From Elusimicrobiota bacterium (GTDB lineage: Bacteria; Elusimicrobiota; Elusimicrobia; JACQPE01), in NCBI GenBank assembly GCA_016207685.1, contig JACQPE010000004.1, forward strand, positions 1,559-65,558: a stretch of DNA of 64,000 bases, read 5' to 3'. This document shows positions 3,683-51,506 of the stretch, in pieces (position 1 is the stretch's first letter; every line of letters begins with the position of its first letter). Position numbers and translations under genes: made by a program. The notes under the pieces are model-generated. The model searched no databases and was not told the origin of the DNA. It saw nothing but the letters and a program-made list of their open reading frames with translations.

Positions 3683-5263
3683 TTACGGCGCGAATAATAA
3701 AAAAACGACCACGCCCAAAATGACCGCTGTTGCGGCGGCAGCCACGGTGGCCTTGGCTATTTTCTGCGTTTGGGTATCCTCCCTGGAATCCCCTCGTATC
3801 CGGCGCCATTTTCTGGATTCCTCCGGCGTTAATCCGGTGGAAGACGCCGTTTCTTCCTTATAGTCAATGGTCAATACCTTTTTTTGAAAATTACCCGCGG
3901 CATCCACCGCCGCAATAACCATACGATTTTCTCCTAATTGCAGCGTTGTCTCCATCGAAAAATACCCTTGGCTGTCTGTATCGGCAGATGTCGCTCCCAA
4001 GCGGATGAGCGCCCCGGGCTCCGATCGCCCCTGGATGACCAACGAATTTTTCTTTATCGTTGAGAATTCTTGTTCGGGCTCAGTGATATCCAAAAATGGC
4101 GCTTGGCGGTCCAACGCTAATTTTTGCCAATCGCCAAATGGCCCTTCAAAACCCAAACGATCACGCAAAGAGACCCGATAAACATAAAGTCCGTCATCCA
4201 AACCAGTCCGACCAAAATCAAAAGGTTCCTCAAACGTAGCTGTTTCATCCCAAAGTAAAACGCCCTCCGGGGACTGCGCCACTTGAACACGCAGCAAAGA
4301 AACTTGAGGTATTCTCCGCATGATCCCGGCGCCGCGGCGGCTGCTTCCCATAACCCAACCCAAGGCGCTTCCTCGAAGAACAAAATTCCCTTGGTCTGAA
4401 ATCGTCTTTGTTGATGTAACTACGGATTCAGAATCCCAAAACTTCTCTATCACCACCCGGTTAGGAACTTCCGGCACAGGAACTGCTTGACCCGGAGGCC
4501 GGCCCGCAGGCACCTCCGTGGCAAAACCTTGACGCACAGAAACAGTTTGATTTTGCGCTTGAACATCAGCGACGCCCGCATAAACCTCAACCACTGTGGC
4601 CAAATCTTCGCGTACTCGGGCGCGGTATTCCACATTTTTCGATTTTGGCGTGATTCGGGCCGATTGGGTAACCACGCGAGCGCCCAAAGACCGAATTTCT
4701 CCTGAAATCAGCGCGGCCTCTCCAATGTTTTGCGCACCGGCGCGCTCAGGGCGTATAACGGCAAAAGATTGAGGTCCCAGGACCAAGTCTTCCCCTTGCG
4801 CGAAACGCACCCGCGCTTGGGAGAGCGCGCCGGTGCGCAAGCCGTCATCTTGCCAAATATCCATATTTTTCGAGGCGACTTTCCACAAGGGGGACTCCCG
4901 CCGCCGAAGCTCCACCAGCCGCTGAGTTTCCATGAGCTTAGCTGATCGCAGGCTTTCTTTTACCAATAAAACAGGAATTCTCAAGGTTTGCCCGGGTAAA
5001 GCCATGGCGGGATCCGATGTCGGCAGCTTGTTGTGCCGGGCAATTTCAGGCCAACGGCTAGGGTCCTTGAGATAACGCTCGCTTAAGGACCACCATGTAT
5101 CCCCGGGCTCAATAGCCACTTCTTGATAGAAGCGGGACTCTTCCGCGAAGATAAAATTCCATGTTCCAAGTTCTAGGCTCCAAGTCGAAAATAAAAAAAT
5201 CCCAGCGATTCGGCATCTTGTTTTGAACCGGGAACTGGGAACCGGGAACTGGGAACTAATCAT
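3683..5263 (-). CDS. LysM domain-containing protein with C-terminal transmembrane anchor
   Basis: LysM-like [20 protein letters not shown]...LPGQTLRIP; C-terminal hydrophobic [20 protein letters not shown]; ATG lies 2 nt after the histidine kinase stop (translational coupling); 5' codons are made of the heptamer repeat, so the true start is uncertain. Confidence 0.55.
5225..5256. repeat. heptanucleotide tandem repeat (GAACYGG)x4.5
   Basis: read directly: gaaccgg gaactgg gaaccgg gaactgg gaac, spanning the histidine kinase stop and the start of the LysM gene. Confidence 0.9.
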
Positions 5264-7388
5264 TTATGGGGATCGTGAAACTAAACGTGCTGCCTTGGCC
5301 TGCGGCGCTTTGGACCCAAATTTTACCGCCGTGAGCTTCGACGATTTCCTTGGAAATTAAAAGACCCAGCCCCGTGCCGCCTTTGGAACGCCCTTCAATT
5401 TGCCCATATTTCTTAAAAAGTCTCTGTTGATCTTCGGGAGCAATCCCCTCCCCCGTATCAACAACGTCAATGCGTAAAAATTTTTTTTCTGAAGCATCCC
5501 CCAGGCGCAAGGTGATTCGACCTCCGGAGGGCGTGTATTTCAGCGCATTACCAACAAGATTAATAAAAACTCGTTCAATTAGCGCCGCGTCGCAGGCGGC
5601 GCGGGAATCAAAACCGGAGATGGTCTCCAAGATAAGCTCATTCCCCAAAGCTCGGGCCCTGCCCTCAAACATCTCCACCACGTCGCGAGCCAAATCAGCA
5701 ACATTCACCGGATGCTTGGAAATGGGAATTGCTCCATGCTGAATGCGAAATGAATCCAAAATATTATTAATCATGGTCAACAAACGGCGCGAGGCGCGGT
5801 CCATTTGCGTCAATGCCCAACGCTGCTTTTCCGTCAAAACGCCCATGCCGGGGCCGTGCAACACTTCAATAAAACCGGTAATGCCGTTTAAAGGATTTTT
5901 TAAATCGTGGGTCACCGCTTGCACAAACTCATCTTTCACCGCCTCCATTTGCTTTTCGAGCGTCACATCACGCAAAACCAAAAGCTCGTCTAAAATCAAT
6001 GCCGGGGCGGCGTCATGTTTACCCACGGGCTCAAGATGCAGTTCATAAACTTTCTTCGTATTGGGACCCAGACTCAACTCCATTACCCTTGAGGGCACAT
6101 GGTCTTTTCGAAATGCCTCCACGGCTTCCATTACAAACGCGCGCCAAGGCGCACCTAAAGAATCTGCGTAGGGATGCTCCAAAATTTCCTGGAGCGCCTT
6201 GTCGGAAAAAAGAATTTTTCTGGCCTGCTCATTGGCCAAAACCACGTTCTGATTTTCGAGCAAGACAAGCCCATCGCGCATAGAGGCCATGGTGGCTTCG
6301 GTTTTGGCTTTTTCAGCCAGCAAACGCTCCAATTGAATCTCTGAATAACGCTTCAACTGAATGACCATCGCATCAAAACTGCTTTCAAGCTCCCCTATTT
6401 CATCTCTGCGGCTTTTTAAGGGAGTGATTTCAAATGAACCTTGGGCCACTTGGCGCGCCGCATGGATCAATTTCCATAATGGCCCCAACAGGCGCTGGGC
6501 CACCAACAAAGCCGCTGCCACGGAAACCAAAACGGCAAAAAATAACAACCCGAGCGCTCTCTTGCGGATTAAACGCACGCTGGCATAAGCATCGCTTTGC
6601 GCTTGTTGCGCCAACACCCAATAGGTCCCGCCGCCGATCGACACCGGAGCCCAGGAACCCACCATGGCGCCGGCGCCGTTGGGTAGCTCAAAATGGAGCG
6701 ATCCCATGGCGGCGGGATTTTGTCGCGCCTGGGCCACCAAGGGGTCGTCCCCCAAAATGGTCCCCATGACTGAACCGGACCGCGGGGACAAAAGCGTCCC
6801 TTGGGCATCAACAAAAAAAGCGTTGCCCGTTCCTGAAAACCGCTCCTCGGCTATCGCCTGGGCCAAAGATGCCGCTGATTCCTTAACGGTCAACAAAAGC
6901 TGCCCCTCGATCGTATCTTCGTGCCAAAGTCCGAGAATGGGACCTTGCTGGTTTTGACGGCTGCTCAATAGCGTCAAAACAGCCGCTGACAAGCTCGCTG
7001 AGGCTGGGCGCTTCGTCCAGTCTCCCGGATTGAAATTCCTCTGATATACCCTCAAGAGAACCTGTTTTTTTTCCAGATCCCAAACGGCAACCTCTAAAAT
7101 TTCAGGGTGCGTTTCCAGAAAACTGCTGATCATGCCGCGCTTTTGGCCGACCATGAGATCCCGCCGTTTCAGGATGCCTTTCAAAAATCCAGCCTGCTTA
7201 AGTGAATGCTCATAGCGCTCCCGAACGCGCTGGGCCAAAGATTGTGCTAATTTTGTTTCAAGCTCGAGGGTCGCCGACACCACTTCCTGTTCATTGAGAC
7301 GCAATAAGCGCCCGCCCACGCCCACGAGCGGTATTACGACCATGGCCACGAGCAATAAAGTCAGCTTGAGGCGTATCCCAGGATTCAT
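5256..7388 (-). CDS. sensor histidine kinase (TM sensor-HAMP-HisKA-HATPase_c)
   Basis: H-box [19 protein letters not shown]; ATPase boxes [25 protein letters not shown] and [25 protein letters not shown]; N-terminal TM helix and HAMP-like segment. Confidence 0.85.
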
Positions 7389-9933: not shown

Positions 9934-9960
9934 GACTTTGGATTTTGGACTTTGGACTTT
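9934..9960. repeat. heptamer array (GAYTTTG)x4
   Basis: gactttg gattttg gactttg gacttt; the same unit recurs at 24520..24550. Confidence 0.85.
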
Positions 9961-13384: not shown

Positions 13385-14239
13385 TCAGTCTTGTTCATTG
13401 CGGCGCGGCAAGCGCATCACGCCGTCGCCCAAAGAAATCGCGTCGTGGGAATAAATGATTTGGCACTCCGCGCGCTCATCAAAAACCTCATCGGTCACGC
13501 GCACTCTGCCGACGCGCTCGATGAGCCAATAACGCTTGCGTGTTCGCGGATCCGTCGCCTGCCGGGTCTTGCGAATAACCGCTAATTCATCTCCTGGCAC
13601 CAGCCCATCTCTGGACCCTAGGCTAATAAAAATAATGTCCCCCTGCGAGAGCATCACCAACTCCTTGTCGCGGCTGGAAATGATCCGGCCGTCATAATTC
13701 GTGAACTCTCTCTGACGAATAATCCGCCGCTGGGAATTGGTCGCGGTGGATACGGCCATTGTCCCTTCGCTTCCATCGCCCGCAGGAATATCGCTTTCAG
13801 CGGCCTCGGCCACGGGGGTCATTCCGGCCTTGGTTTCTGCGCCCCGTGGTTCTTGTTGAGGCTTGGCCGCCGCCATTGTTGGTTGTTCAGAAGCCTGATG
13901 TTCGGATGCGCCCAATTTTTTTATATCCCCCCTGGAGGCCCCGGAAACATAATCCGGCCCCGGCAGCTTTAATACCTGCCCGGGAACAAGTTGATTAGGA
14001 TCTTTCAAGATGTCGCGATTGATGTCATAAATCGCGCTCCAATCATAACCGTTTTCCCTGAATAAAACCGCGATCTGCCAAAGGGTGTCGCCTTTAACGA
14101 CAACGTAGCGCTCCTCCAAAATTTCCTCTTCGGCCCCGGCCGCGCTGATCTGACATAAAACGCAAGCGGCCATGGCCGCTTGAATAAATATTATCTTTCG
14201 TGACCCCTGACCCCTGACCCATGACCGCTTATTCCTCAT
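13385..14239 (-). CDS. secreted LysM domain protein
   Basis: LysM YVVVKGDTLWQIAVLF...VPGQVLKLP; start moved to MRNKRSW (14239) to avoid a 71-nt overlap with comM; N-terminus reads as a signal peptide and its first codons are the (TGACCCC)n repeat. Confidence 0.55.
   Translation of the reverse strand: MRNKRSWVRGQGSRKIIFIQAAMAACVLCQISAAGAEEEILEERYVVVKGDTLWQIAVLFRENGYDWSAIYDINRDILKDPNQLVPGQVLKLPGPDYVSGASRGDIKKLGASEHQASEQPTMAAAKPQQEPRGAETKAGMTPVAEAAESDIPAGDGSEGTMAVSTATNSQRRIIRQREFTNYDGRIISSRDKELVMLSQGDIIFISLGSRDGLVPGDELAVIRKTRQATDPRTRKRYWLIERVGRVRVTDEVFDERAECQIIYSHDAISLGDGVMRLPRRNEQD
14201..14226. repeat. heptamer array (TGACCCM)x3.7
   Basis: tgacccc tgacccc tgaccca tgacc; a 2-unit copy (tgacccctgaccctg) occurs at 8903..8917. 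Confidence 0.9.
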
Positions 14240-24390: not shown

Positions 24391-24415
24391 CGTCCGGCGT
24401 CCGGCGTCCGGCGTC
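24391..24415. repeat. heptamer array (CGTCCGG)x3.5
   Basis: cgtccgg cgtccgg cgtccgg cgtc, 15 nt upstream of the murD start codon. Confidence 0.9.
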
Positions 24416-24519: not shown

Positions 24520-24550
24520 GACTTTGGACTTTGGACTTTGGACTTTGGAC
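24520..24550. repeat. heptamer array (GACTTTG)x4.4
   Basis: gactttg gactttg gactttg gactttg gac, ending 5 nt from the mraY stop codon. Confidence 0.9.
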
Positions 24551-24554
24551 TTCT

Positions 24555-25652
24555 TCATCTCACTTTCAAACTGGCCAAAGCAATGAGGGCCAAAATAACC
24601 CCGACCACCCAAAATCGAACCACAACTTTGGGCTCGGCCGCCCCCAAAAGCTCGAAGTGGTGATGAACGGGCGACATTTTAAAAATTCTCTTGCCCTTGG
24701 TCATGCGGAAATAGCCCATCTGAATAACCACGCTCAAGGATTCGGCCAAAAAAACACCGCCGATCACGGGCAGCAAAATCTCCTGCTTGGAGACAATGGA
24801 GACGAACACCAGCAAGGACCCCAACGGCAGCGATCCTGTGTCTCCCATAAAAATTTGCGCCGGATAACTGTTGAACCATAAAAATCCTAAACCCGCGCCG
24901 ATCAAAGCGGAAAGAACGATCGTGAGTTCCCCCGCGGCCGGCACTGAAATAATGCGCAAATACTGAGAAAACCGGGCATGCCCCGCGGCATAGACGAACA
25001 CGAGCATCGCGGAGGCCGCAATCACCAAATTACCGATCGCGAGTCCATCCATGCCGTCGGTTAAATTAACGCTGTTGGAAAATCCAACGAACAAGAGCAT
25101 CACCAGGAAAAAATAAAACACATGCAAATTAAGATAAGTCTCTTTGATAAAAGGCACATTAACGCTCAAAGCGAATTGGGCATTGGGGGGATAAAGCGCC
25201 AGATAAAAAGCGAACGCCGAGGCCGCGCCGATTTGAAGCAAGAATTTAACCCTGGAGCTTACGCCTTCGGCCCTGCCCTCGCGCCTCGGCGCGTGAATTT
25301 TGAGCCAGTCATCCCAAAACCCGAGCGCTGCAAATAAAAAAAGCAGCAATTGCGCCATCAGCACATAGCGGTTATCCGGGCGCGCCCATAAAAACACCGT
25401 CAACATCATCACCGCAATAATTAAAAGTCCCCCCCCAACGGCAATTCCTGTTTTGGTTTGATGGGAATCCGGACCCCAGACTTTGGGTTTATTGACCATT
25501 CCATGAGCCAAAAGCGTTCGAATCATCCAGGGTCCCATAAACAAACACACGGCGAAGGCCGTCACGGCCGCTGCCCCGGCCCTGAAGGTGATGTAAGAAA
25601 ATACATTGAGGCCAAAATAGCTGTGGCGTAACAGAGAAAGATAATAGAGCAT
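24555..25652 (-). CDS. mraY: phospho-N-acetylmuramoyl-pentapeptide transferase
   Basis: polytopic membrane protein with MraY blocks IFMGDTGSLPLG and PVHHHFEL. Confidence 0.9.
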   Translation of the reverse strand: MLYYLSLLRHSYFGLNVFSYITFRAGAAAVTAFAVCLFMGPWMIRTLLAHGMVNKPKVWGPDSHQTKTGIAVGGGLLIIAVMMLTVFLWARPDNRYVLMAQLLLFLFAALGFWDDWLKIHAPRREGRAEGVSSRVKFLLQIGAASAFAFYLALYPPNAQFALSVNVPFIKETYLNLHVFYFFLVMLLFVGFSNSVNLTDGMDGLAIGNLVIAASAMLVFVYAAGHARFSQYLRIISVPAAGELTIVLSALIGAGLGFLWFNSYPAQIFMGDTGSLPLGSLLVFVSIVSKQEILLPVIGGVFLAESLSVVIQMGYFRMTKGKRIFKMSPVHHHFELLGAAEPKVVVRFWVVGVILALIALASLKVR

Positions 25653-25768: not shown

Positions 25769-27220
25769 TTAAAACTCCCTTTTTAGATCACTAATCAATT
25801 CTTCAAGAGCCTCGGCCCGCGATGCCTTAAATAACACCGCTCCTGGCGGAGGATATAAAAATAGTTGCCGCTTAATAAGTTCCAATGCCTCTCCTCTCGT
25901 CGCAAAAATGACCTTGGGTCCCATTTTGCCGAATTCCTGGTTCAAGCCCATGGCCAAGCGCTCGGCCGCGAACCGGCCCGTCACCACAAAAACCACGCGT
26001 TCATTGATGAGACCGGCCCCTTTGGCTTGCCGGGCGATGCTGGCGCCTGTTTGATAATGCAGCTCCATCTCACGACTGCCCAGCTCACGCATTTCCCCCA
26101 AAACGACGATGCGCGTTCCCTCGCGGGCGCCGGCCAAAAACCCGATGACGCTATCCTCCATGGAAGCGGGATTGGCATTGTACGCGTCATTAATGGCGAC
26201 AAACTGTTCAGCTAGCGCCGGACTTAAATCAATGCGATCGCCGCGCAGGGAAACCGGAGTAAATTTTAAAAGTCCTTGCAAAATTTTCTTGACCGGAACT
26301 TTGGCGGCCAAGCCGCAGGCTGCGGCGGCAAGCGCGTTTTTCATAGGTCCCAAGGCTGTCATGGGGATCATCGCCTCGCCCAAAAATTTTTCTTGGTACA
26401 TGATCTCCAACAAGGTTCCCTTGGCGCTGCGACTCTTAATGCGCCCCTGAACATCGGCGCCGGGCTCAAAACCAAAACTTAAATAACCGCAACCAGGCCA
26501 CAACGCCGGAAGCCTGGATAGCCAGGGATCCTCTTTCCCATAAATAACCTGGCCGCCGGGTTCAAGGCCGCGTAAAATTTCGGACTTCGTCTCAAAAATA
26601 GTTTTTTCGTCGCCAAAAGTCGCCAGATGCGCCGGCGCGATGTTGGTCAAAACAACAATCTGGGGTTTGCCGGCCAAAGACAAAGGCTCAATATCGCCCT
26701 TTTTCCGCGCTCCCATTTCCCAAACTGCGAAACGATGCTTCTCGGAAAGTTCAAGAATAGACAACGGACAGCCCACTTCATTATTAAAATTACCGCGACT
26801 GCTGGTAACGGGGCCTGATTGGGAAAGAACTCCGGCAATCATTTCCCTCGTTGTTGTTTTACCGTTGCTGCCGGTGACGCCCACGACGGTGACTTGGGAA
26901 AAAAGAGCCCGGTGCGCTTGGGCCAAAGCCAATAACGCATCCAGACCGCGCCTCACTAAGATGATCGCCCCCTGGGCAGAAGCAGGGGGCCGGGGCTCGC
27001 GACTCACCAAAGCGCCCAAGGCTCCGCTGGCCAAGGCATCAGGCACAAAATCATTGCCGTCTTTATTGGCGCCTTCAATGACCCAGAAAAGTTCTCCCTT
27101 GGCGATTCGCCGGGAATCAACGGCGATTGAAGACACGGCTTGCCGTGGATCGCCTTGAAGCAACCGCCCATGGCAAGCATCCGCAATTCTTCCCAGAGTC
27201 CAATGCTTCAAGAGCTCCAT
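25769..27220 (-). CDS. murF: UDP-N-acetylmuramoyl-tripeptide--D-alanyl-D-alanine ligase
   Basis: P-loop VGVTGSNGKTTTREM and Mur-ligase C-terminal domain. Confidence 0.85.
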   Translation of the reverse strand: MELLKHWTLGRIADACHGRLLQGDPRQAVSSIAVDSRRIAKGELFWVIEGANKDGNDFVPDALASGALGALVSREPRPPASAQGAIILVRRGLDALLALAQAHRALFSQVTVVGVTGSNGKTTTREMIAGVLSQSGPVTSSRGNFNNEVGCPLSILELSEKHRFAVWEMGARKKGDIEPLSLAGKPQIVVLTNIAPAHLATFGDEKTIFETKSEILRGLEPGGQVIYGKEDPWLSRLPALWPGCGYLSFGFEPGADVQGRIKSRSAKGTLLEIMYQEKFLGEAMIPMTALGPMKNALAAAACGLAAKVPVKKILQGLLKFTPVSLRGDRIDLSPALAEQFVAINDAYNANPASMEDSVIGFLAGAREGTRIVVLGEMRELGSREMELHYQTGASIARQAKGAGLINERVVFVVTGRFAAERLAMGLNQEFGKMGPKVIFATRGEALELIKRQLFLYPPPGAVLFKASRAEALEELISDLKREF

Positions 27221-27241
27221 TGTTTTATAATTTCATCATAT

Positions 27242-28195
27242 ATGGGCGTGACTCAAGAAAGCCTGCTCTTAACAAACGCGCGCAACGTGATTCATTCTTT
27301 TGATCCGAATCTGTTGACTCAACTGCGCATTGATGCCACCGGCATCGGCCTGCGCGTTGAAAAAATTTCTAAAACCCGAGCCCCCAAAAAAGAACATCAA
27401 GCGGCCTGGCTGGAAGCGGCCATCGGCTTGATTGACCTGACGACCCTTGAAGGGTCGGACACGGATGAACGCGTGAACCGGCTCGCGCATAAGGCCGTGC
27501 GCCCATGGCGCGCGCAGCCAGCCATACACGCGGCCGCCCTATGTGTTTACGGCAATCTAGTGCCTCAAGCCAAAAAATTTCTCGATGGCTCCCCCGTTAA
27601 AATCGCGGCCGTTTCCACGAGCTTCCCTCACGGCCAAACGCCGCTCGCGATCAAAATTCAGGAAACAAAAGCTCTGGTGGCCGCGGGCGCTGATGAAATT
27701 GACATGGTCATCAGCCGCAACGCTCTCTTGCGCGGGGACCACTACAAAGTCTATGAAGAAATCGCCGAAACGCGCGAAGCCTGCGGCGACGCCCATTTGA
27801 AAGTCATCTTAGAAACAGGCGAACTCTCCGAATTCCGCCAAATTTGGATCGCAAGTGAAATCGCCATGCAAGCCGGAGCTGATTTCATTAAAACATCCAC
27901 CGGTAAAATCCAGCCGGCCGCCACCCTTGAAGCAGGGCTCATCATGCTTCAAGCCATCGATCAATTTCACCGCCGAACGGGATATAAAATTGGATTTAAA
28001 CCTGCCGGAGGCATCCGATCGGCCAAACAAGCGCTGACCTGGATGGCATTGGTCCAAGAAACGCTCGCTGATGATTGGGTTGCGCCCCGCTTATTGCGCC
28101 TTGGGGCGTCAAGCCTGCTCGATGATATTATCCGGCAACTGCATCATCTAAAAACCGGCCAATACGAAAGCTATGATTACATTCCCAAGGGATAG
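27242..28195 (+). CDS. deoC: deoxyribose-phosphate aldolase (long form)
   Basis: Schiff-base lysine region ADFIKTSTGK within a TIM-barrel aldolase-like sequence; start taken at ATG 27242 to avoid overlap with divergent murF. Confidence 0.65.
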   Translation: MGVTQESLLLTNARNVIHSFDPNLLTQLRIDATGIGLRVEKISKTRAPKKEHQAAWLEAAIGLIDLTTLEGSDTDERVNRLAHKAVRPWRAQPAIHAAALCVYGNLVPQAKKFLDGSPVKIAAVSTSFPHGQTPLAIKIQETKALVAAGADEIDMVISRNALLRGDHYKVYEEIAETREACGDAHLKVILETGELSEFRQIWIASEIAMQAGADFIKTSTGKIQPAATLEAGLIMLQAIDQFHRRTGYKIGFKPAGGIRSAKQALTWMALVQETLADDWVAPRLLRLGASSLLDDIIRQLHHLKTGQYESYDYIPKG

Positions 28196-28204
28196 GAGAT
28201 CGTC

Positions 28205-30589
28205 ATGAAAACACCCTCTGCAATAATGGCCCGCCTGGATTACGGCCCCAATCCCGAAACAACCAAAGTCCATTTTAAGCCGATTTATGATCTTTTTATT
28301 AACAATGAATGGGCGCCACCGATATCCGGAAAATACTATGACACCATCAATCCGGCCGCGGGCAAAGCGCTGGCCAAGATTGCCTGGGGCAATGAGCTTG
28401 ATATTGACCGCGCCGTCAAGGCCGCCCAAGAAGGATTTAAAACATGGAAATCTTATTCCCCCTCCGAGCGCAGCCGTCTGATCTTCGCTTTGGCCCGTAT
28501 CATCCAAGAACGCTCCCGCGAATTGGCCATTGCCGAAACGCTCAATAACGGTAAGCCCATTCGCGAATCGCGTGACATTGATATTCCATTGGCGGCGCGG
28601 CACTTTTTCTACCACGCGGGATGGGCCGACAAACTGGAATCAGCATTTGCCGATATTACGATCGCACCCCTGGGCGTTGTCGGTCAAATCATCCCTTGGA
28701 ATTTCCCCTTTCTCATGCTGGCTTGGAAAGTGGCTCCCGCATTGGCTGCCGGCAATGCCGTGATCTTAAAACCCGCGGAAACCACGCCCCTAACAGCGCT
28801 TTTATTTGCCGATATCTGCCGTGATGCAGGGCTGCCGCCAGGCACCGTTAACATCGTCACCGGGCACGGCGACACAGGCGCCGCCTTGGCCAACCACCCA
28901 GGCGTGGCCAAAATCGCTTTTACCGGTTCGACCGAAGTGGGGAAATTAATCCGCAAGGCCACGGCCGGTTCAGGCAAAAAACTGTCCCTCGAACTCGGCG
29001 GTAAATCCCCAACGATTATCTTCGAGGATGCGCCGCTCTATCAAGCCGTTGAAGGCATCGTGGACTCAATTTTCTTTAACCAAGGCCAGGTGTGCTGCGC
29101 CGGCTCCAGACTGTTGCTCGAAGAAAGCATCGCTCCCAAATTTATCGAACTTCTGAAAGACCGGATGGCCAAAATTCGCGTCGGCGACCCCATGGATAAA
29201 AATACGGATATGGGCGCCATTAACTCTCAAGATCAGCTTGATAAAATCCGCCATTACGCCAAAATCGGACAAGATGAGGGAGCCTGCTTGTGGCAAGCTC
29301 CTTGCGAGCTGCCCAAACAGGGTTTTTTCTTTCCCCCAACGATTTTTACGGAAGTTCAAACCACTCATACGATTGTTCAAGAAGAAATTTTCGGCCCGGT
29401 GCTTTCCATCCTGACATTCAGAACCGTGAACGAAGCCGTGGAACTGGCCAATAACACGCCCTATGGCCTGGCTGCGAGCGTCTGGACTAAAGATGTGTCC
29501 AAGATGGTGGCTGTATCGCGAACGCTCAAAGCGGGCACCGTCTGGGGCAATGGCACGAATAAATTCGATGCAGCCGCCGAATTCGGCGGACACAAAGAAT
29601 CCGGCTTTGGCCGCGAAGGCGGTTTGCAGGGACTATGGGAGTACTTGCAAGTTCAAAGTTCAAAGTCCGAAGTCCGAAGTCTCGATGAAATCTACCGCAA
29701 CGCCTCACCGCAACCCGCAACCCGCAACCCGCAACCCGCAACTCATGTATGGAAAACGCCGAAGATGCTCATCGGCGGCAAGCAGGTTCGCACGGAATCA
29801 GGCCGTTATTACAAAATCAACGCCGCCAACGGCCAAAAACTTCTTGCCGATGTTAATCAAGGCTCGCGTAAAGACATTAGAGATGCCGTTGAAGCGGCGC
29901 ATGCCGCTTTGCCTGGATGGTCCAAAACCACGGCCTACAATAGAGGCCAAATTCTCTACCGCATGGCCGAGATGCTTTCCTCCCGCGCCTCTGAATTCGC
30001 CCATGCCATTGCCGCCCAAACAGGGAGTTCCTGGGAAGATGCCGCAGGTGAAGTTTCCTTAACCATCCAACGCCTGCTCCACTATGCCGGCTGGTCGGAT
30101 AAATACACGGGGAGCGTCAATCCCGTGACACAAACGGACTTTAACATCACCTACCCGGAAGCCGTCGGCGTCGTCGCTTTATTCGCGCCCAACACCCGGC
30201 CCCTCTTGGGCCTCATCAGCAAATTAGCGCCCGCTTTTGCAGCCGGCAACACGAGCGTCGTCGTTGCCTCCGAGCAATTTCCCCTAAGCGCCACGGACTT
30301 TATTGAAATTTTAGACAGCTCGGACGTCCCTGCGGGCGTCATTAACATCATAACCGGATTGCATGAAGAACTCCTGCCCACTGTAGCCGAACACCGCGCC
30401 GTGGGCTTGATTGATGTTTCAGGACCCGCCGCACGGGTTAAAATAGCCGAGGAGCTTTCGATCAGCAACCTCAAACGCGTTTATCATGACCCGGAAATGC
30501 CGGATTGGACATCTCCCGAAGCCCAAGGCCGATTGTGGATGCGCCGCTACCTGGAATTTAAAACCGTCTGGATCACCAGCGGCTTTTAA
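28205..30589 (+). CDS. aldehyde dehydrogenase fused in frame to a second, truncated ALDH-like module
   Basis: module 1 complete (LSLELGGKSP, catalytic FFNQGQVCCAGSRLL, end ...GLWEYLQVQ); heptamer-encoded linker SSKSEVRS...PQPATRNPQPAT; module 2 from Met 29765 (MLIGGKQV...) has ALDH N-terminal/NAD-binding-like sequence but no catalytic Cys/Glu region. Confidence 0.7.
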   Translation: MKTPSAIMARLDYGPNPETTKVHFKPIYDLFINNEWAPPISGKYYDTINPAAGKALAKIAWGNELDIDRAVKAAQEGFKTWKSYSPSERSRLIFALARIIQERSRELAIAETLNNGKPIRESRDIDIPLAARHFFYHAGWADKLESAFADITIAPLGVVGQIIPWNFPFLMLAWKVAPALAAGNAVILKPAETTPLTALLFADICRDAGLPPGTVNIVTGHGDTGAALANHPGVAKIAFTGSTEVGKLIRKATAGSGKKLSLELGGKSPTIIFEDAPLYQAVEGIVDSIFFNQGQVCCAGSRLLLEESIAPKFIELLKDRMAKIRVGDPMDKNTDMGAINSQDQLDKIRHYAKIGQDEGACLWQAPCELPKQGFFFPPTIFTEVQTTHTIVQEEIFGPVLSILTFRTVNEAVELANNTPYGLAASVWTKDVSKMVAVSRTLKAGTVWGNGTNKFDAAAEFGGHKESGFGREGGLQGLWEYLQVQSSKSEVRSLDEIYRNASPQPATRNPQPATHVWKTPKMLIGGKQVRTESGRYYKINAANGQKLLADVNQGSRKDIRDAVEAAHAALPGWSKTTAYNRGQILYRMAEMLSSRASEFAHAIAAQTGSSWEDAAGEVSLTIQRLLHYAGWSDKYTGSVNPVTQTDFNITYPEAVGVVALFAPNTRPLLGLISKLAPAFAAGNTSVVVASEQFPLSATDFIEILDSSDVPAGVINIITGLHEELLPTVAEHRAVGLIDVSGPAARVKIAEELSISNLKRVYHDPEMPDWTSPEAQGRLWMRRYLEFKTVWITSGF
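29651..29685. repeat. heptamer array (GTYCRAA)x5 inside coding sequence
   Basis: gttcaaa gttcaaa gtccgaa gtccgaa gtctcga. Confidence 0.9.
29709..29743. repeat. heptamer array (CGCAACC)x5 inside coding sequence
   Basis: cgcaacc x4 then cgcaact; encodes PQPATRNPQPAT in the ALDH frame. Confidence 0.9.
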
Positions 30590-30612
30590 TCTCACGTAAA
30601 ATTTTCTCTTCA

Positions 30613-30652
30613 GGCGCACTCAAGACCAGGCGCCATTTTGTTTTTTGTTTTT
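30613..30652 (+). terminator. putative rho-independent terminator after the ALDH gene
   Basis: ggcgc-actcaagaccag-gcgcc stem-loop followed by a T-rich run (attttgttttttgttttt). Confidence 0.45.
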
Positions 30653-30692
30653 CTTCTCTGCCAGCCTCATGAAGAGCTAAAATGAGTCCATT

Positions 30693-31337
30693 ATGCTCCA
30701 TCCTGATTTAAAGGATATTATAACGAGCCGGTTTTTGCTGGGGGGCTTGATTATTGGATTTTTAAGCGCCACGCCCTTGGGCCCCATCGGCGTTCTGTGC
30801 ATCAATCGGACGTTAACTAAGGGCAAATCGGTCGGCGTCGCCTCCGGCTTCGGCACGGCGGCAGCCGACGCTATTTACAGTTGCGTGGCTGGATTCGGTC
30901 TGCGCCTGATAAGCGCCCTCATCAACGGCCAGCATTTCTGGTTTCGCCTGACCAGCGGCCTATTAATCTGCGGCTACGGTCTTAAAACATTCTTCGCCAA
31001 ACCGCCGCACCCTGCGGACAGACAACGCCTTAAAGGTCTTTTGAGCGCCTTCCTGTCCACATTCTTGCTAACTCTGGCCAACCCAACCATTATTATCAGC
31101 TTCATGGCCATATTTGCCGGTTTAGGGGTAGCCCATACGCACGGCAACCGCCTGCTGGCCGCAGAATTGGTGGGCGGTGTTTTCCTTGGCGCCCTTTTTT
31201 GGTGGGCGGCTTTCAACAGTTTAATCAGCGTATTCCCGGTAAAGCTCAATGACAACGGCCTCAAATGCTTTAACAAAGTCTCTGGCGTCGCGATTATCGG
31301 CCTAGGCCTTCTCGCGCAGTTCTTTTTAGAAACCTAG
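30693..31337 (+). CDS. LysE/RhtB family amino-acid exporter
   Basis: six-TM protein with N-terminus LGGLIIGFLSATPLGPIGVLCINRTLTKG typical of the LysE translocator family. Confidence 0.75.
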   Translation: MLHPDLKDIITSRFLLGGLIIGFLSATPLGPIGVLCINRTLTKGKSVGVASGFGTAAADAIYSCVAGFGLRLISALINGQHFWFRLTSGLLICGYGLKTFFAKPPHPADRQRLKGLLSAFLSTFLLTLANPTIIISFMAIFAGLGVAHTHGNRLLAAELVGGVFLGALFWWAAFNSLISVFPVKLNDNGLKCFNKVSGVAIIGLGLLAQFFLET

Positions 31338-31338
31338 C

Positions 31339-31366
31339 GGGGTCACATCTCTACATTTTACATTTT
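31339..31366. repeat. 28-nt intergenic element, copy 2 (ggggtcacatctctacattttacatttt)
   Basis: inverted copy of 16551..16578 (26/28 identical); it fills the gap between convergent LysE and HExxH genes. Confidence 0.85.
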
Positions 31367-31367
31367 G

Positions 31368-32135
31368 TCAACGATTAACGCTGACGGCTCGAATAAAATT
31401 ATCCTGGGGACTCCTGTCCTGGGTTAAACGCTCCAGGCCCAGCAGGTAATAAATTTTTGCCGCTTCCAGAGGAGCATCCCTTTCCAATTCTTCAAGAGCG
31501 CGCTCATTAAACCGGTAAGGCGAGACCGCTCGGTCAATGGTGGCGATTTGTTTCGGCGACAAAGACAAGGCCTCGCCGCCTTGGAAATCCCCCAGCGCAT
31601 CTTGACACGCGTCATAGTGGAGGTCCCGCAGGATTGCCGTTTCCCGAAGATCCCAGCCGCCCTCCAGGCAGAGGAGCCCTTGCGCCCAATGACGGCGCAA
31701 GGGCTCCTCAATGGCTGCTTCTCCCGCCAGCTCCTCGGCTTCGGCAAATCCCCCGATACCAAGTTCATGACTGAACAAATGCCACATTTCATGACGCAAT
31801 GTCCGCCATAAAAGCAGTCTCCGAATCTTCTGGTCGGCAATGAGCCGGAAATGAGGATGGATCAAAATTAAATCGCTTTCAGGATCATAGACGGCGGCGG
31901 CGCGTTCCCGGCGTTTCCCTTTAGTTTCAATCGGCTCATCGTTGTAGCGAACAAGAATGGGATTATCCTCGTCAACCACATTTTTAATCACTTGACCGAT
32001 AAAATCATCCGCCAAAATGATCCAGGTTAAATCTTCAGCTAAATAGGAATCGGGCGATTGAATCGCTTCCGGCAGGCTGGCCCATAAAAAACCTGGCGCC
32101 GCGGCCAACAGAACGACTCTCCGAAAAACCCTCAT
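31368..32135 (-). CDS. secreted protein with HExxH zinc-metallopeptidase-like motif
   Basis: signal peptide MRVFRRVVLLAAAPGFLWASL; LRHEMWHLFSHELG. Confidence 0.4.
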   Translation of the reverse strand: MRVFRRVVLLAAAPGFLWASLPEAIQSPDSYLAEDLTWIILADDFIGQVIKNVVDEDNPILVRYNDEPIETKGKRRERAAAVYDPESDLILIHPHFRLIADQKIRRLLLWRTLRHEMWHLFSHELGIGGFAEAEELAGEAAIEEPLRRHWAQGLLCLEGGWDLRETAILRDLHYDACQDALGDFQGGEALSLSPKQIATIDRAVSPYRFNERALEELERDAPLEAAKIYYLLGLERLTQDRSPQDNFIRAVSVNR

Positions 32136-37055: not shown

Positions 37056-38800
37056 GTCGGCCCCTGATGCACAACATTGACATTTTGCGCTGACAATGCG
37101 GGCTTAAGTCCCATATTCACAATCGCTTCCTGCATTATTTTCTTAAACAATGGGGCCGCCAAGTCGCTGGCCCAGGCCACTTTAGGCTTGCGCGGATCAT
37201 CCAATATCACACAGGCGGCCAATTCCGGTTCCGGCATGGGCAAGGCGCCACAAAATGAAACGACAACATGATTTGGCGTATGGAGTCTGGTTTTCGGATC
37301 AATTTTCTGTGCCGTCCCTGTTTTTCCGGCCGTTGGATATCCGGCCATTTGAGCGGACTTGCCAGTTCCCTGTGCCACCACGCCTTCCATCAAAACCATG
37401 GCGCGCTTGGCCGCATTTTGAGGTAATGCTTGACGGACTTTCCGCGAAGAAAACGCGTAAAGCCGGCGCTCCTCGCGAAAACCCTTAATGCGATCAACAA
37501 TCTGGGGTTCAAGCAAAATGCCGCCGTTGGCCAAAGCCGCGTACGCTTGCGTTAATTGAAGCGGCGTCGTTCCGATTTCATATCCAAATGACATCATGGG
37601 CAAACTGACAGCGCTCCATCCCGCGGGCGGCCGGACAATGCCGACCGATTCTCCCGTGACGGGGAGCGCGGTTCTTGAGCCGAAACCAAACGCCCGATAG
37701 GCCTGATAAAGACCTTCCTGGCCGAGAGCCATGCCGATCTTGGCAAAACCGATATTTGAAGAATGCGCTATCACGGCGCTCAAGGGAATCAACCCATAAG
37801 GCTCATGGTCGGAAATCGTCAGGCTCGGCGTTGGATGCCAGCGCCCATTCTCGCAATCAATTTCATCTGTCTCTTGGACAACGCCGGCGTCCAATGCCGC
37901 CGCCAACACAAAAGGCTTGACAACGCTGCCCGGCTCAAAGGTATAACTCACGGCCAAATTAGGGTCCAGACTAAATCCCAATCCATCCTCAAAACCAGCT
38001 TCGGTGCGGCTCGCCATGGCCAAAAGCGCTCCCGTCCTGACATGAACGACTACGGCCACGGCGGCGCGGGCGTCCTGATGGGCCAGCGCTTCTTCCAAAT
38101 GAGCTTCCGTGCTTGATTGCAACTGAGCATCCAGCGTTAAATAAACATCAAAGGGTCCTTCGTCATGGCCGCGACTCCAGGGCCAGATCGCCATGCTCTC
38201 CGGCCGATCCTCTTCAGCAAACACCTTTCCTAAGGCATCCCGCAAAACAACACGCACCTCCTCTTTCCCTTGCAGCAGGGGATTAAGCTGCCTCTCAAGG
38301 CCGGATGTCCCCTCGCCGTCAATGCCCACGGAACCGATCAACTCCGCTGCCGTTTTCCCCCAGGGATAACGGCGCTTGGATTCAAGCTCAATTCCGATTC
38401 CCTTAATTCCCAGGCGCCTTAACGCCTCGGCCTCATCGGCAACGACCTGACGTTTGATCCAAACAAAATTCGACGATCCCCGAAGGCGGCGCATGAGGTC
38501 GCGTTGGTCAACACCTGAAATAACACGCGCGATTTGAAGCGCCAGGCGCTCGGGTGGAATATCGGTCTCTCGACGCGACACAAACAAAGACGGCATCTCG
38601 ACCGATACCCCAAGAACCCGGCCTCGCCGGTCAAGGATCCGCCCTCGCATGGGGCGGACACGCCTTGTTTGAACAACCTCGGAAGCTGTCATCTTGGCGT
38701 AAGAACCGTGCCTCACAATCTGAAGCTGGCCTAACCGGACAGCCACGGCGCCATAGAGAAAAAAAATCGCAGCCAAAGGCAGAAAGAGCCGGAAAGTCAT
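37052..38800 (-). CDS. ftsI: peptidoglycan D,D-transpeptidase FtsI (PBP3)
   Basis: SxxK (SVVKPF), KTG (AGKTGTAQK) and a dimerisation domain; start set at MTFRLFLPLAAIF (38800), because the ORF-track N-terminus MALFHFELGTWNLELGT is the translated heptamer repeat. Confidence 0.85.
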   Translation of the reverse strand: MTFRLFLPLAAIFFLYGAVAVRLGQLQIVRHGSYAKMTASEVVQTRRVRPMRGRILDRRGRVLGVSVEMPSLFVSRRETDIPPERLALQIARVISGVDQRDLMRRLRGSSNFVWIKRQVVADEAEALRRLGIKGIGIELESKRRYPWGKTAAELIGSVGIDGEGTSGLERQLNPLLQGKEEVRVVLRDALGKVFAEEDRPESMAIWPWSRGHDEGPFDVYLTLDAQLQSSTEAHLEEALAHQDARAAVAVVVHVRTGALLAMASRTEAGFEDGLGFSLDPNLAVSYTFEPGSVVKPFVLAAALDAGVVQETDEIDCENGRWHPTPSLTISDHEPYGLIPLSAVIAHSSNIGFAKIGMALGQEGLYQAYRAFGFGSRTALPVTGESVGIVRPPAGWSAVSLPMMSFGYEIGTTPLQLTQAYAALANGGILLEPQIVDRIKGFREERRLYAFSSRKVRQALPQNAAKRAMVLMEGVVAQGTGKSAQMAGYPTAGKTGTAQKIDPKTRLHTPNHVVVSFCGALPMPEPELAACVILDDPRKPKVAWASDLAAPLFKKIMQEAIVNMGLKPALSAQNVNVVHQGPT

Positions 38801-38813
38801 GGCGGACAATAGA

Positions 38814-38848
38814 GTTCCAAGTTCCAAGTTCCAAGTTCCAAGTTCAAA
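38814..38848. repeat. heptamer array (GTTCMAA)x5
   Basis: gttccaa x4 then gttcaaa, 14 nt upstream of the ftsI start. Confidence 0.9.
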
Positions 38849-38896
38849 ATGGAAAAGGGCCAAAAAAAGCAGGGCTTCTTTTCCCTCTTGACTTTT

Positions 38897-38924
38897 AACT
38901 TGGAACTTGGATATTGGAACTTTC
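38897..38924. repeat. heptamer array (AACTTGG)x4, inverse complement of 38814..38848
   Basis: aacttgg aacttgg atattgg aactttc. Confidence 0.85.
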
Positions 38925-39203: not shown

Positions 39204-39250
39204 TCGCGCCGCCTTGAAAAACCAAAAGAATGCCGAATGCCGGAATCTAA

Positions 39251-39360
39251 AACGTCGAATTTCGAACGTCGAATTAAGGAACAGGGAAAATTTTGAATTT
39301 TAAATTTTGAATTTTGAATTAAGGAATTCATTTTATTTGTCATTTGAGATTCGTCATTCG
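39251..39360. repeat. compound short-tandem-repeat region: (CGTCGAA/TTTCGAA)x3, (AATTTTR)x4, (GTCATTY)x2
   Basis: aacgtcgaatttcgaacgtcgaatt ... ttttgaattttaaattttgaattttgaatt ... gtcatttgagattcgtcattcg; related to 51470..51506. Confidence 0.85.
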
Positions 39361-51469: not shown

Positions 51470-51506
51470 ATTTTCAATGACGATTTTCGAATGACGAATT
51501 TCGAAT
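51470..51506. repeat. (TTTCGAA/TGACGAA) 14-mer tandem repeat x2.5
   Basis: ttttcaatgacgattttcgaatgacgaatttcgaat; shares the core GACGAATTTCGAA with 39251..39275. Confidence 0.85.

What the first reader, a model, noticed from the sequence alone, without database searches (positions are those of the whole stretch)
29651..29743. Two heptamer arrays form an in-frame linker fusing a complete ALDH to a truncated ALDH-like paralogue
ALDH module 1 reaches its natural C-terminus (...GLQGLWEYLQVQ) and then reads through with no stop. It crosses (GTYCRAA)x5 and (CGCAACC)x5, translated SSKSEVRS...PQPATRNPQPAT. It then enters a second module that begins with its own Met (MLIGGKQV, 29765). This second module has an ALDH N-terminal/cofactor-domain-like sequence but no catalytic Cys/Glu region. 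Total repeat length keeps the frame. Gain or loss of a single 7-nt unit would insert a frameshift, terminate module 1 near its natural end and uncouple module 2. Repeat copy number could therefore toggle between a fused and a split architecture.
Basis: seen in the sequence. Interest (0 to 1): 0.55.

Follow-up and report, generated by a model that had tools for sequence, protein, structure and literature searches.

The report
ALDH16-type enzyme with heptamer-repeat linker
The "ALDH fused to half an ALDH" is an ordinary member of the known, structurally solved ALDH16 family. Its flexible linker has been colonised by the 7-base tandem repeats that litter this genome, and every relative keeps the reading frame, so an on/off switch is not supported.

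Summary
One 794-aa ORF (28205..30589, +) runs from a complete aldehyde dehydrogenase, through (AAGTYCR)x4.7 and (CCGCAAC)x5, into an ALDH-like module that lacks the catalytic domain.

The architecture is not new. The whole protein aligns end to end (E=9e-213) with PDB 6MVR, ALDH16 of Loktanella sp. The C-terminal "pseudo-ALDH" domain of that protein is the defining feature of the family.

All five independent close relatives (the one named assembly is Elusimicrobia) carry the same fusion in frame. Their linkers are hypervariable: three further lineages hold heptamer arrays at this site, two with different units and one with a degenerate CCGCAAC array, and two lineages have none.

Period-7 arrays are a genome-wide feature here. 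There are 8 strong arrays against 0.02 expected, and they lie mostly between genes.

In 129 of 133 more distant loci the two modules are separate adjacent genes, usually behind a deoC-like aldolase.

The best reading is a selectively tolerated, fast-evolving, Pro/Ser-rich tether built from slippage-prone repeats, with the frame held by purifying selection. A repeat-driven fused/split toggle is neither supported nor excluded, because no population data were available. Only one of the eight frame-shifting changes simulated (+1 unit in array 1) would end module 1 near its natural end.

The parts
27140..28195 (+). deoC-like (DeoC/LacD family) aldolase gene immediately upstream. The true start is probably downstream of 27140, because the longest ORF overlaps murF.
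   Evidence: Pfam PF01791, E=9e-22. A deoC homologue precedes the ALDH gene in 99 of 133 testable related loci. A DeoC-ALDH-pseudoALDH triple fusion, P0126 (1142 aa), exists.
28205..30589 (+). Single 794-aa ORF: an ALDH16-family aldehyde dehydrogenase.
   Evidence: End-to-end alignment, aa 6-793 against 6-766 of PDB 6MVR (LsALDH16), E=9e-213.
28205..29659 (+). Module 1 (aa 1-485): a complete catalytic ALDH with the NAD-binding, catalytic and oligomerisation parts. The motifs IPWNFP, LELGGK and GQVCCAGSR align with Asn165, Glu261 and Cys295 of 6MVR.
   Evidence: Pfam Aldedh 40-485. Alignment. The catalytic triad of 6MVR is named in PMC12041015. Stand-alone orthologues stop 3-6 residues after the equivalent of Y480.
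29660..29746 (+). Interdomain linker (aa ~486-514), low-complexity and rich in Ser, Pro, Thr and Gln. It is hypervariable among relatives (27-35 aa between EYL and VWK).
   Evidence: junctions of the window, L004, L084, L085/86, L002 and L001. The RNA is unusually unstructured, z=+3.1. No Rfam match.
29649..29681 (+). Heptamer array 1: AAGTTCA x2, AAGTCCG x2, then AAGTC (33 nt = 11 codons). It belongs to an AAGTYCN unit family that recurs in intergenic spacers of this window.
   Evidence: TRF. Related units lie at 9944, 24520, 38813, 38897 and 5157.
29685..29688 (+). ATGA between the arrays, with both the ATG and the TGA out of frame. +1 unit in array 1 would end module 1 at this TGA. +1 unit in array 2 would put this ATG in frame with module 2.
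   Evidence: Simulation. It is absent from the relatives' linkers on reading. By my own rough estimate an ATGA would occur in such a segment by chance about 9% of the time.
29695..29742 (+). Heptamer array 2: CCGCAAC x5 perfect (29708-29742) plus one more copy at 29695-29701 after a 6-nt gap. It is 48 nt in all and encodes PQPATRN-type Pro-rich repeats.
   Evidence: TRF and the sequence. L084 has a degenerate CCGCAAC array at the same place.
29747..30586 (+). Module 2 (aa 515-794): the ALDH16 C-terminal pseudo-ALDH domain. It has the Rossmann-like part and the C-terminal beta-flap motif YLEFKTVWI, and no catalytic domain.
   Evidence: phmmer: aa 5-281 of the query against 501-766 of 6MVR, and only residues ~6-249 of ordinary ALDH structures. 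NCBIfam matches cover positions ~1-245 only.

Best explanation
The ORF encodes a bacterial ALDH16-family enzyme. An active ALDH (module 1) is covalently tethered to the family's characteristic C-terminal pseudo-ALDH domain (module 2). In the solved Loktanella enzyme that domain packs against the catalytic module the way a second subunit does in ordinary ALDH dimers.

The tether is a structurally unconstrained linker. In this lineage, where the closest named relative is an Elusimicrobia MAG, heptanucleotide tandem repeats arise all over the genome, presumably by replication slippage. The linker is the one coding place that tolerates them.

C-rich, stop-free units (CCGCAAC, CCCCGCT, CTCACCC) read in all three frames give Pro/Ser/Thr-rich flexible peptide. 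Purifying selection removes variants whose total length breaks the frame, so what is seen is always an in-frame linker of 27-35 aa.

Shown: the architecture, family membership, conservation of the fusion, hypervariability of the linker, the genome-wide period-7 excess and its intergenic bias. Inferred: a slippage origin, and the absence of a regulatory role.
For: 1. The full-length collinear match to LsALDH16 structures 6MVR/6MVU has E=9e-213. The C-terminal module matches 6MVR 501-766. The family description is in PMC8160307 and PMC12041015.
2. The fusion is open and in frame in the window, L004, L084, L085/L086 and L002, and open to the contig edge in L001.
3. The linkers differ. L004 has a GAAACGG-like array x3.9 and CCCGCTC x6.7. 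L001 has CTCACCC x4.1. L084 has a degenerate CCGCAAC array. L002 has no arrays, and none are evident in L085 by eye.
4. There are 8 strong period-7 arrays against 0.02 expected. There are 17 perfect period-7 runs against 0-9 for other periods. 11 of the 17 lie in the 10% of the window that is non-coding (P=9e-8).
5. Over-representation of heptamer SSRs in intergenic DNA, and a polymerase-slippage explanation for it, are described for other bacteria (PMC4692102 and PMC4679880).
6. The linker has no RNA structure (z=+3.1) and no Rfam family match.
Against: - Non-triplet repeats inside a gene are the classic signature of contingency loci.
- Three lineages carry heptamer arrays at exactly the same linker position, which could mean the repeats are wanted there rather than merely tolerated.
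- Array 1 belongs to a recurrent AAGTYCN unit family that sits next to start and stop codons elsewhere in the window. That hints at a sequence-specific function I cannot explain.
- The split architecture is clearly viable in other phyla (129 of 133 loci), so a frameshifted state need not be lethal.
- No read-level or strain-level data were available.
Confidence: 0.8

Rival explanations
1. Contingency locus. Slippage in either heptamer array toggles the gene between the fused ALDH16 form and a truncated or split form, in which module 1 ends early and module 2 is either made separately or lost. This would give population heterogeneity in enzyme assembly or activity.
For: - The unit length is not a multiple of 3, and the perfect copies (5.0, 2.6 and 2.7) are slippage-prone.
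- +1 unit in array 1 ends module 1 ten residues after its natural end at a TGA that overlaps an ATG (ATGA). +1 unit in array 2 puts that ATG in frame with module 2.
- Split ALDH + half-ALDH gene pairs are the norm in other phyla, often with overlapping stop and start, so both states could be functional.
- SSR copy number differs between related Flavobacteriales in the spacer of the split genes (L006 against L007).
Against: - All five independent relatives are in frame. By my arithmetic, if each frame were random the chance would be about (1/3)^4 for the four relatives besides the window.
- Copy numbers are low for high-rate switching.
- A clean split needs two simultaneous changes. Most single changes give junk tails of roughly 38-105 aa after the shift.
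- The ATGA is not conserved in relatives.
- There is no convincing Shine-Dalgarno sequence before either candidate start.
- The target is a cytoplasmic metabolic enzyme, not the surface or restriction-modification genes typical of phase variation.
- The same repeat class is scattered through intergenic DNA, so its presence here needs no special explanation.
Confidence: 0.07
2. The arrays act at the nucleic-acid level, like their intergenic siblings. They might be binding sites for a heptamer-reading protein, or an unstructured mRNA stretch that modulates ribosome transit between the two domains for co-translational folding. The encoded peptide would be secondary.
For: - Array 1 shares the AAGTYCN unit family with arrays abutting start and stop codons elsewhere in the window.
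- The linker RNA is less structured than all 200 shuffles.
- Heptamer arrays recur at the same site in three further lineages.
- A regulatory role has been proposed for TAACTGA heptamers in Beggiatoaceae, and CspB is reported to bind heptamer repeats (PMC4679880).
Against: - The unit sequences at this site differ completely between lineages (CCGCAAC, CCCCGCT, CTCACCC), which argues against a sequence-specific reader.
- Two fused relatives have no arrays at all: L002 by TRF and L085 by eye.
- No function has been demonstrated for heptamer SSRs in any of the cited systems.
Confidence: 0.1
3. Artefact or decay. The real locus is two genes, or a pseudogene, and the continuous frame results from mis-assembly of repeat copy number.
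For: Short repeats can be mis-assembled. The L001 contig breaks exactly inside its heptamer array.
Against: - The arrays are only 33-48 nt, well within the length of a single read.
- Five separately assembled relatives from different projects are also fused and in frame.
- Both modules are intact, with the catalytic residues conserved.
- The fused form matches a crystallised protein.
Confidence: 0.03

Closest known systems
ALDH16 of Loktanella sp. (LsALDH16; PDB 6MVR, 6MVS, 6MVT, 6MVU; Liu & Tanner 2019, J Mol Biol 431:524; CDD family cd07111)
   Same: The same two-module architecture over the full length (aa 6-793 against 6-766, E=9e-213). The Asn/Glu/Cys catalytic triad is conserved in module 1. 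The C-terminal domain is homologous, including the terminal beta-flap motif.
   Different: The linker here is longer and is encoded by heptanucleotide tandem repeats. In a neighbour-joining tree the window's clade is sister to the split-gene forms rather than grouping with the other fused ALDH16 representatives. No enzymology or structure exists for this protein.
Vertebrate ALDH16A1 (pseudoenzyme linked to gout)
   Same: The same family and domain order, according to the reviews.
   Different: The vertebrate proteins lack the catalytic residues and are thought to be binding proteins. The window's module 1 keeps them.
Split 'ALDH + ~289-aa half-ALDH' gene pairs behind deoC in Bacteroidota, Acidobacteriota, Verrucomicrobiota, Planctomycetota, Pseudomonadota and others
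   Same: These are orthologous modules (module 1 ~56-62% identical, module 2 ~43-50%) in the same gene order and the same deoC neighbourhood.
   Different: They are two polypeptides, with a stop 3-6 residues after the conserved AY and a start -4 to ~+70 nt later. I found no description of this split form in the papers I searched.
Type B/C PutA C-terminal domain
   Same: A Rossmann-like pseudo-ALDH domain that substitutes for a dimer partner, according to PMC12041015.
   Different: A different ALDH family (P5CDH) and a different protein context. This was not compared here.
Over-represented intergenic heptamer SSRs (cyanobacterial STRR/GGGGAYT, Xanthomonas GGGAATC, Beggiatoaceae TAACTGA; Mrazek et al. 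2007 as cited in PMC4692102 and PMC4679880)
   Same: A period-7 excess, an intergenic bias, variable copy number and unit sequence between relatives, and unknown function.
   Different: Here there are many different units rather than one dominant unit, and the lineage is different. One pair of arrays lies inside an expressed reading frame.
SSR contingency loci (Haemophilus, Neisseria, Campylobacter phase variation)
   Same: A non-triplet tandem repeat inside an ORF, so unit gain or loss shifts the frame.
   Different: Copy number is low, the target is a metabolic enzyme, and no out-of-frame allele was seen among relatives. Switching is untested.

Membership tests
ALDH16 (cd07111) | N-terminal complete ALDH module | tested here: met
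   Pfam Aldedh covers aa 40-485 against profile positions 5-460 of 461, E=2e-209.
ALDH16 (cd07111) | C-terminal extension of ~250-300 aa resembling an ALDH NAD-binding domain plus beta-flap, without a catalytic domain | tested here: met
   Module 2 matches 6MVR residues 501-766 (E=1e-78) and only residues ~6-249 of ordinary ALDH chains. NCBIfam models match at positions ~1-245 only.
ALDH16 (cd07111) | Collinear full-length homology to a characterised ALDH16 | tested here: met
   One alignment stretch, aa 6-793 against 6-766 of 6MVR_A, 711 bits, E=9e-213. 6MVR is identified as Loktanella ALDH16 in PMC12041015.
ALDH16 (cd07111) | Bacterial type: catalytic Asn, Glu and Cys present | tested here: met
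   IPWNFP, LELGGK and GQVCCAGSR are identical to the 6MVR motifs holding Asn165, Glu261 and Cys295 (alignment; residues named).
ALDH16 (cd07111) | A homodimer that mimics an ALDH tetramer, and a C-terminal domain that does not bind NAD | not testable with these tools
   This needs a structure or biochemistry. By eye, module 2 has VASEQF where module 1 has LKPAET, so the NAD-binding Lys is replaced. That is sequence inspection only.
SSR-mediated phase-variable (contingency) gene | A tandem repeat with a unit that is not a multiple of 3, inside the ORF | tested here: met
SSR-mediated phase-variable (contingency) gene | Copy-number polymorphism that produces in-frame and out-of-frame alleles among strains or reads | tested here: not met
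   The five independent related junctions are all in frame. Within-species data are unavailable, because exact-protein look-ups found no other contig. The test is therefore between species only.
SSR-mediated phase-variable (contingency) gene | A functional OFF or alternative state with defined stop and start | tested here: inconclusive
   +1 unit in array 1 gives a clean 496-aa module 1. Other changes give junk tails of roughly 38-105 aa after the shift. Module 2 restart needs a second change or a start without a clear Shine-Dalgarno sequence.
Genome-wide heptamer long-SSR class | Excess of period-7 arrays over other periods and over chance | tested here: met
   8 arrays against 0.02 expected. 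17 runs at period 7 against 9, 7, 1, 0 and 1 for periods 5, 6, 8, 9 and 10.
Genome-wide heptamer long-SSR class | Intergenic bias | tested here: met
   11 of 17 runs lie in the 10.3% of the window that is non-coding, P=9e-8. The three linker arrays are the only ones deep inside a supported gene with at least 2.5 copies.

The most novel reading that the evidence does not exclude
The heptamer arrays make the ALDH16 linker a reversible frame switch. In part of the population the enzyme would be produced as a separate (or lone) catalytic subunit instead of the tethered form. That would recreate, by slippage, the split architecture that is fixed in most other phyla. The out-of-frame ATGA between the arrays would serve as the stop/start junction.
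Probability: 0.06. Interest if true: 0.6.

Novelty: new member of a known kind. Interest (0 to 1): 0.27.

Why it matters
For the finding itself, little changes. It removes an apparent oddity by assigning the protein to ALDH16, a family with a crystal structure, and it explains the repeats as part of a genome-wide heptamer-repeat habit.

The value lies in the by-products:
- It is a clear natural example of non-triplet SSRs being domesticated as an interdomain tether, with the frame held by selection.
- ALDH16 exists far more often as two adjacent genes than as a fusion, at least among the relatives sampled here.
- The deoC-like aldolase linkage is strong, from conserved synteny and one triple fusion. 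ALDH16's physiological substrate is unknown, in bacteria and in humans, so this linkage gives a testable lead: an aldolase-generated or aldolase-consumed aldehyde.

Tried and rejected
1. RNA element in the linker: rejected. The fold is weaker than all 200 shuffles (z=+3.1), and Rfam gives no hit at E<=0.1 in 27000-31500.
2. 'The fusion is a recent read-through of an intergenic spacer.' This was suggested by an in-frame Met with an N-terminus-like peptide in the L002 linker and by the higher identity to split than to fused forms. It is not favoured. The neighbour-joining tree puts the fused clade that contains the window as sister to all split forms, with the other fused ALDH16s outside (100/100 bootstraps). 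One ancestral fusion followed by one fission is the simpler history. The rooting is midpoint only, so a re-fusion is not excluded.
3. Complementary arrays forming a hairpin: rejected. The two arrays in the window are not complementary.
4. Population-level variation: could not be tested. Exact-sequence look-ups of the 794-aa protein and of the downstream LysE-like protein found no other contig. The single genome and metagenome scans gave only relatives with <=70% identity.
5. The primary ALDH16 structure paper: not held, under either its DOI or PMC6376876. Statements about it come from two reviews.
6. P0001 (274 aa, starting MLIAGKQV) looked like a stand-alone module 2. It is a gene call at a contig edge, and the frame is open to the first base through a CTCACCC array.
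Full report
**1. The observation**

A single ORF, 28205..30589 on the + strand, encodes 794 aa with no stop between its two halves.

Tandem Repeats Finder reports three arrays, all with 100% matches:
- (AAGTTCA)2.6 at 29649-29666
- (AAGTCCG)2.7 at 29663-29681
- (CCGCAAC)5.0 at 29708-29742

The first array is therefore 4.7 copies of AAGTYCR (33 nt), not five. A further CCGCAAC copy sits at 29695-29701, separated from the main array by 6 nt, so that block is 48 nt, or 16 codons. The junction translates as ...GLQGLWEYLQVQSSKSEVRSLDEIYRNASPQPATRNPQPATHVWKTPKMLIGG....

The repeats are far beyond chance. The window holds 8 perfect period-7 arrays of at least 2.5 copies, against 0.02 expected from a first-order Markov model. 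Periods 4-12 other than 7 give 0 or 1.

**2. What the protein is**

Module 1 (aa 40-485) is a full-length Pfam Aldedh match (E=2e-209). Module 2 matches ALDH models only over their first ~245 positions.

A search of solved structures settles the identity.
- Module 2 matches residues 501-766 of PDB 6MVR/6MVU (E=1e-78). It matches only residues ~6-249 of ordinary ALDHs.
- The whole 794-aa protein aligns in one stretch, 6-793 against 6-766, with 6MVR (E=9e-213).
- 6MVR is ALDH16 of Loktanella sp. (Liu & Tanner 2019). Two reviews describe the family as an ALDH with a large extra C-terminal domain that resembles a non-functional cofactor-binding domain. That domain makes one chain mimic a classical ALDH dimer, which the authors call 'trans-hierarchical' similarity (PMC8160307; PMC12041015).
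- The motifs IPWNFP, LELGGK and GQVCCAGSR of the window protein are identical to those holding Asn165, Glu261 and Cys295 in 6MVR. Module 1 should therefore be catalytically competent, as in bacterial ALDH16 and unlike vertebrate ALDH16A1.
- The C-terminal YLEFKTVWI of module 2 aligns with the terminal strand of 6MVR. What is missing is precisely the catalytic domain.

The 'complete ALDH fused to a truncated ALDH-like paralogue' is thus a known, structurally solved architecture.

**3. Relatives: fused or split**

A search with module 2 returned thousands of stand-alone proteins of ~287-292 aa from many phyla. Only three hits were close, at 62-68% identity. One of those, P0002, is a fused protein cut off by a contig end.

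Genome and metagenome scans gave 160 loci. Of the 133 loci where the upstream region can be read:
- 129 have the ALDH and the half-ALDH as separate genes, and 113 of those are within 300 nt of each other.
- 99 have a deoC-like aldolase in front.

In the split forms the ALDH stops 3-6 residues after the conserved ...GL.AY. The half-ALDH starts -4 to about +70 nt later, with M..RLEVLKTYKLYIGG.

Four of the 133 loci are fused: L002, L004 and the identical pair L085/L086, all among the window's close relatives; L004 is annotated as an uncultured Elusimicrobia MAG. Adding the window, L084 (whose contig starts inside module 1) and L001 gives the following junction set. Five independent junctions besides L001 are open and in frame. 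L001 is open to the first base of its contig.

The Met at 29765 aligns with a Leu of the split proteins, and homology begins at least six residues upstream (VWKTPK against VLKTYK). It is therefore not the module's own start.

A neighbour-joining tree of concatenated modules places the fused clade that contains the window as sister to all split forms, with 15 other fused ALDH16 representatives outside (100/100 bootstraps). The simplest history is an ancestral fusion retained here, with one fission leading to the split clade. A re-fusion cannot be excluded, because the tree is midpoint-rooted.

**4. The linker and its repeats**

Between the conserved EYL and VWK the relatives have 27-35 residues with no conserved sequence:

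| Locus | Repeats in the linker |
|---|---|
| Window | AAGTYCR x4.7 and CCGCAAC x5 (+1) |
| L004 | a GAAACGG-like array x3.9 and CCCGCTC x6.7 |
| L001 | CTCACCC x4.1; the contig ends inside the array |
| L084 | a degenerate CAGGATG-like stretch and a degenerate CCGCAAC array |
| L002 | none found by TRF |
| L085/86 | none evident by eye |

The C-rich units contain no stop in any frame. Read in three frames they give Pro-rich heptapeptide repeats: PQPATRN, SPLPAPR and HPSPLTP. This is the composition of a flexible tether.

The window as a whole shows the same repeat habit:
- It holds 17 perfect period-7 runs of at least 15 nt, against 9, 7, 1, 0 and 1 for periods 5, 6, 8, 9 and 10.
- 11 of the 17 lie in the 10.3% of the window not covered by long ORFs (P=9e-8).
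- Several abut start or stop codons.
- Units related to array 1 (AAGTYCN, on either strand) recur at 5157, 9944, 24520, 38813 and 38897.

Over-representation of heptamer SSRs, mostly intergenic, has been reported for many bacteria, with a polymerase-slippage explanation and no established function (PMC4692102; PMC4679880). [quoted passage not shown]

The linker RNA is less structured than all 200 shuffles (z=+3.1) and matches no Rfam family.

**5. How it most likely works**

The linker is a structurally unconstrained tether in an ALDH16 enzyme. In a genome that generates heptamer arrays everywhere, it is the one coding site that tolerates them. Selection then filters for stop-free units and for a total length that keeps the frame.

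Five of five informative junctions are in frame despite repeated indel turnover. By my arithmetic, random frames would give about 1% for the four relatives besides the window.

The shown steps are family membership, conservation of the fusion, linker hypervariability, and the genome-wide period-7 excess with its intergenic bias. The inferred steps are an origin by slippage and the lack of a regulatory role.

**6. The toggle hypothesis**

I simulated unit gains and losses.
- +1 unit in array 1 ends module 1 at 496 aa, at a TGA (29686) that overlaps an ATG (29685) in an ATGA motif.
- +1 unit in array 2 puts that ATG in frame with module 2. A clean split would therefore need two changes.
- -1 unit in either array gives a 616-aa ORF, about 130 residues past the natural end, of which roughly 105 are out-of-frame junk.
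- +1 or -2 units in array 2 give ORFs of 552 and 545 aa, each with about 38 junk residues after the shift. +2 units gives a 623-aa ORF.
- Restart at Met 29765 would lack the first strand of the domain and has no clear Shine-Dalgarno sequence.

The ATGA is not conserved in the relatives' linkers. By my own estimate a chance occurrence in such a segment is roughly 9%. Copy numbers (5, ~2.6, ~2.7) are low for fast switching, and the gene is a cytoplasmic enzyme.

The idea is not absurd, because the split form is viable elsewhere. Nothing found here supports it, however, and read-level data were not obtainable.

**7. Novelty and verdict**

The architecture is already known (ALDH16). The protein is a new member from a lineage whose closest named relative is an Elusimicrobia MAG. 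Its unusual feature is a heptamer-encoded linker.

The most interesting by-products are the dominance of a split-gene form of ALDH16 among the sampled relatives and its tight association with a deoC-like aldolase. That association includes P0126, a 1142-aa DeoC-ALDH-pseudoALDH fusion. I did not find either point in the papers I searched.

Interest in the finding as posed is low to moderate.

Noticed in passing
window, whole; e.g. 5157-5257, 9934-9960, 14201-14226, 24391-24415, 24520-24552, 38813-38922, 39228-39320, 51470-51506: The window shows a genome-wide excess of 7-nt tandem arrays, almost all intergenic and often directly next to start or stop codons. For example, 24520-24552 lies 3 nt after the stop of 24555..25652(-), and 38813-38845 lies ~14 nt upstream of an ATG at 38799(-). 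A unit family AAGTYCN recurs on either strand at six or more sites. This resembles cyanobacterial, Xanthomonas and Beggiatoa heptamer repeats. Its function is unknown.
   Followed up: partly
window 27140-30589; loci L004-L163: The gene order deoC-like aldolase, ALDH, half-ALDH is conserved in 99 of 133 testable loci across Bacteroidota, Acidobacteriota, Verrucomicrobiota, Planctomycetota, Pseudomonadota and the window's close relatives (L004 is an Elusimicrobia MAG). One protein, P0126 (1142 aa), fuses all three. This is a possible clue to the unknown physiological substrate of ALDH16.
   Followed up: partly
loci L005-L163: ALDH16 exists mostly as a split pair: a ~485-aa ALDH that stops just after ...GL.AY.., followed by a ~289-aa pseudo-ALDH. 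This holds in 129 of 133 loci, often with overlapping stop and start (ATGA/TGATG). Among 50%-identity cluster representatives both forms are common: 30 fused-like and 73 split-like among the 149 listed representatives besides P0001. I found no description of the split form in the papers searched.
   Followed up: partly
L006 ~5950-5998, L007 ~5926-5998, L009 ~5948-5998: In Flavobacteriales-type MAGs the short spacer between the split ALDH and half-ALDH genes is filled with 8-nt tandem repeats (GCACATTA/ACACATTA, or AGCACACT/AGCACATT). L007 has three more units than L006. SSRs therefore gather at this junction in an unrelated phylum too.
   Followed up: no
window 29685-29688: An out-of-frame ATGA lies between the two arrays. 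Its TGA becomes the stop of module 1 after +1 unit in array 1, and its ATG comes into frame with module 2 after +1 unit in array 2. It is not conserved in relatives and may be coincidence.
   Followed up: yes
L001 1-29: The Logan contig ends inside a (CTCACCC)x4 array at the equivalent linker position. The gene caller therefore reported a false 274-aa 'stand-alone' module 2 starting at the internal Met.
   Followed up: yes
P0128 (1154 aa), P0184 (4596 aa), P0178 (1239 aa): Some ALDH16-like representatives carry other additions, such as an N-terminal Myb/SANT-like DNA-binding domain in P0128 and a very long upstream region in P0184. These are probably eukaryotic or mis-joined gene models and were not examined.
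   Followed up: no
window 27140-27220: The longest ORF of the deoC-like gene overlaps the 5' end of the divergent murF-like gene (25769..27220, -) by ~80 nt. The real deoC start is probably further downstream, since homology to orthologues begins around aa 56-64.
   Followed up: no
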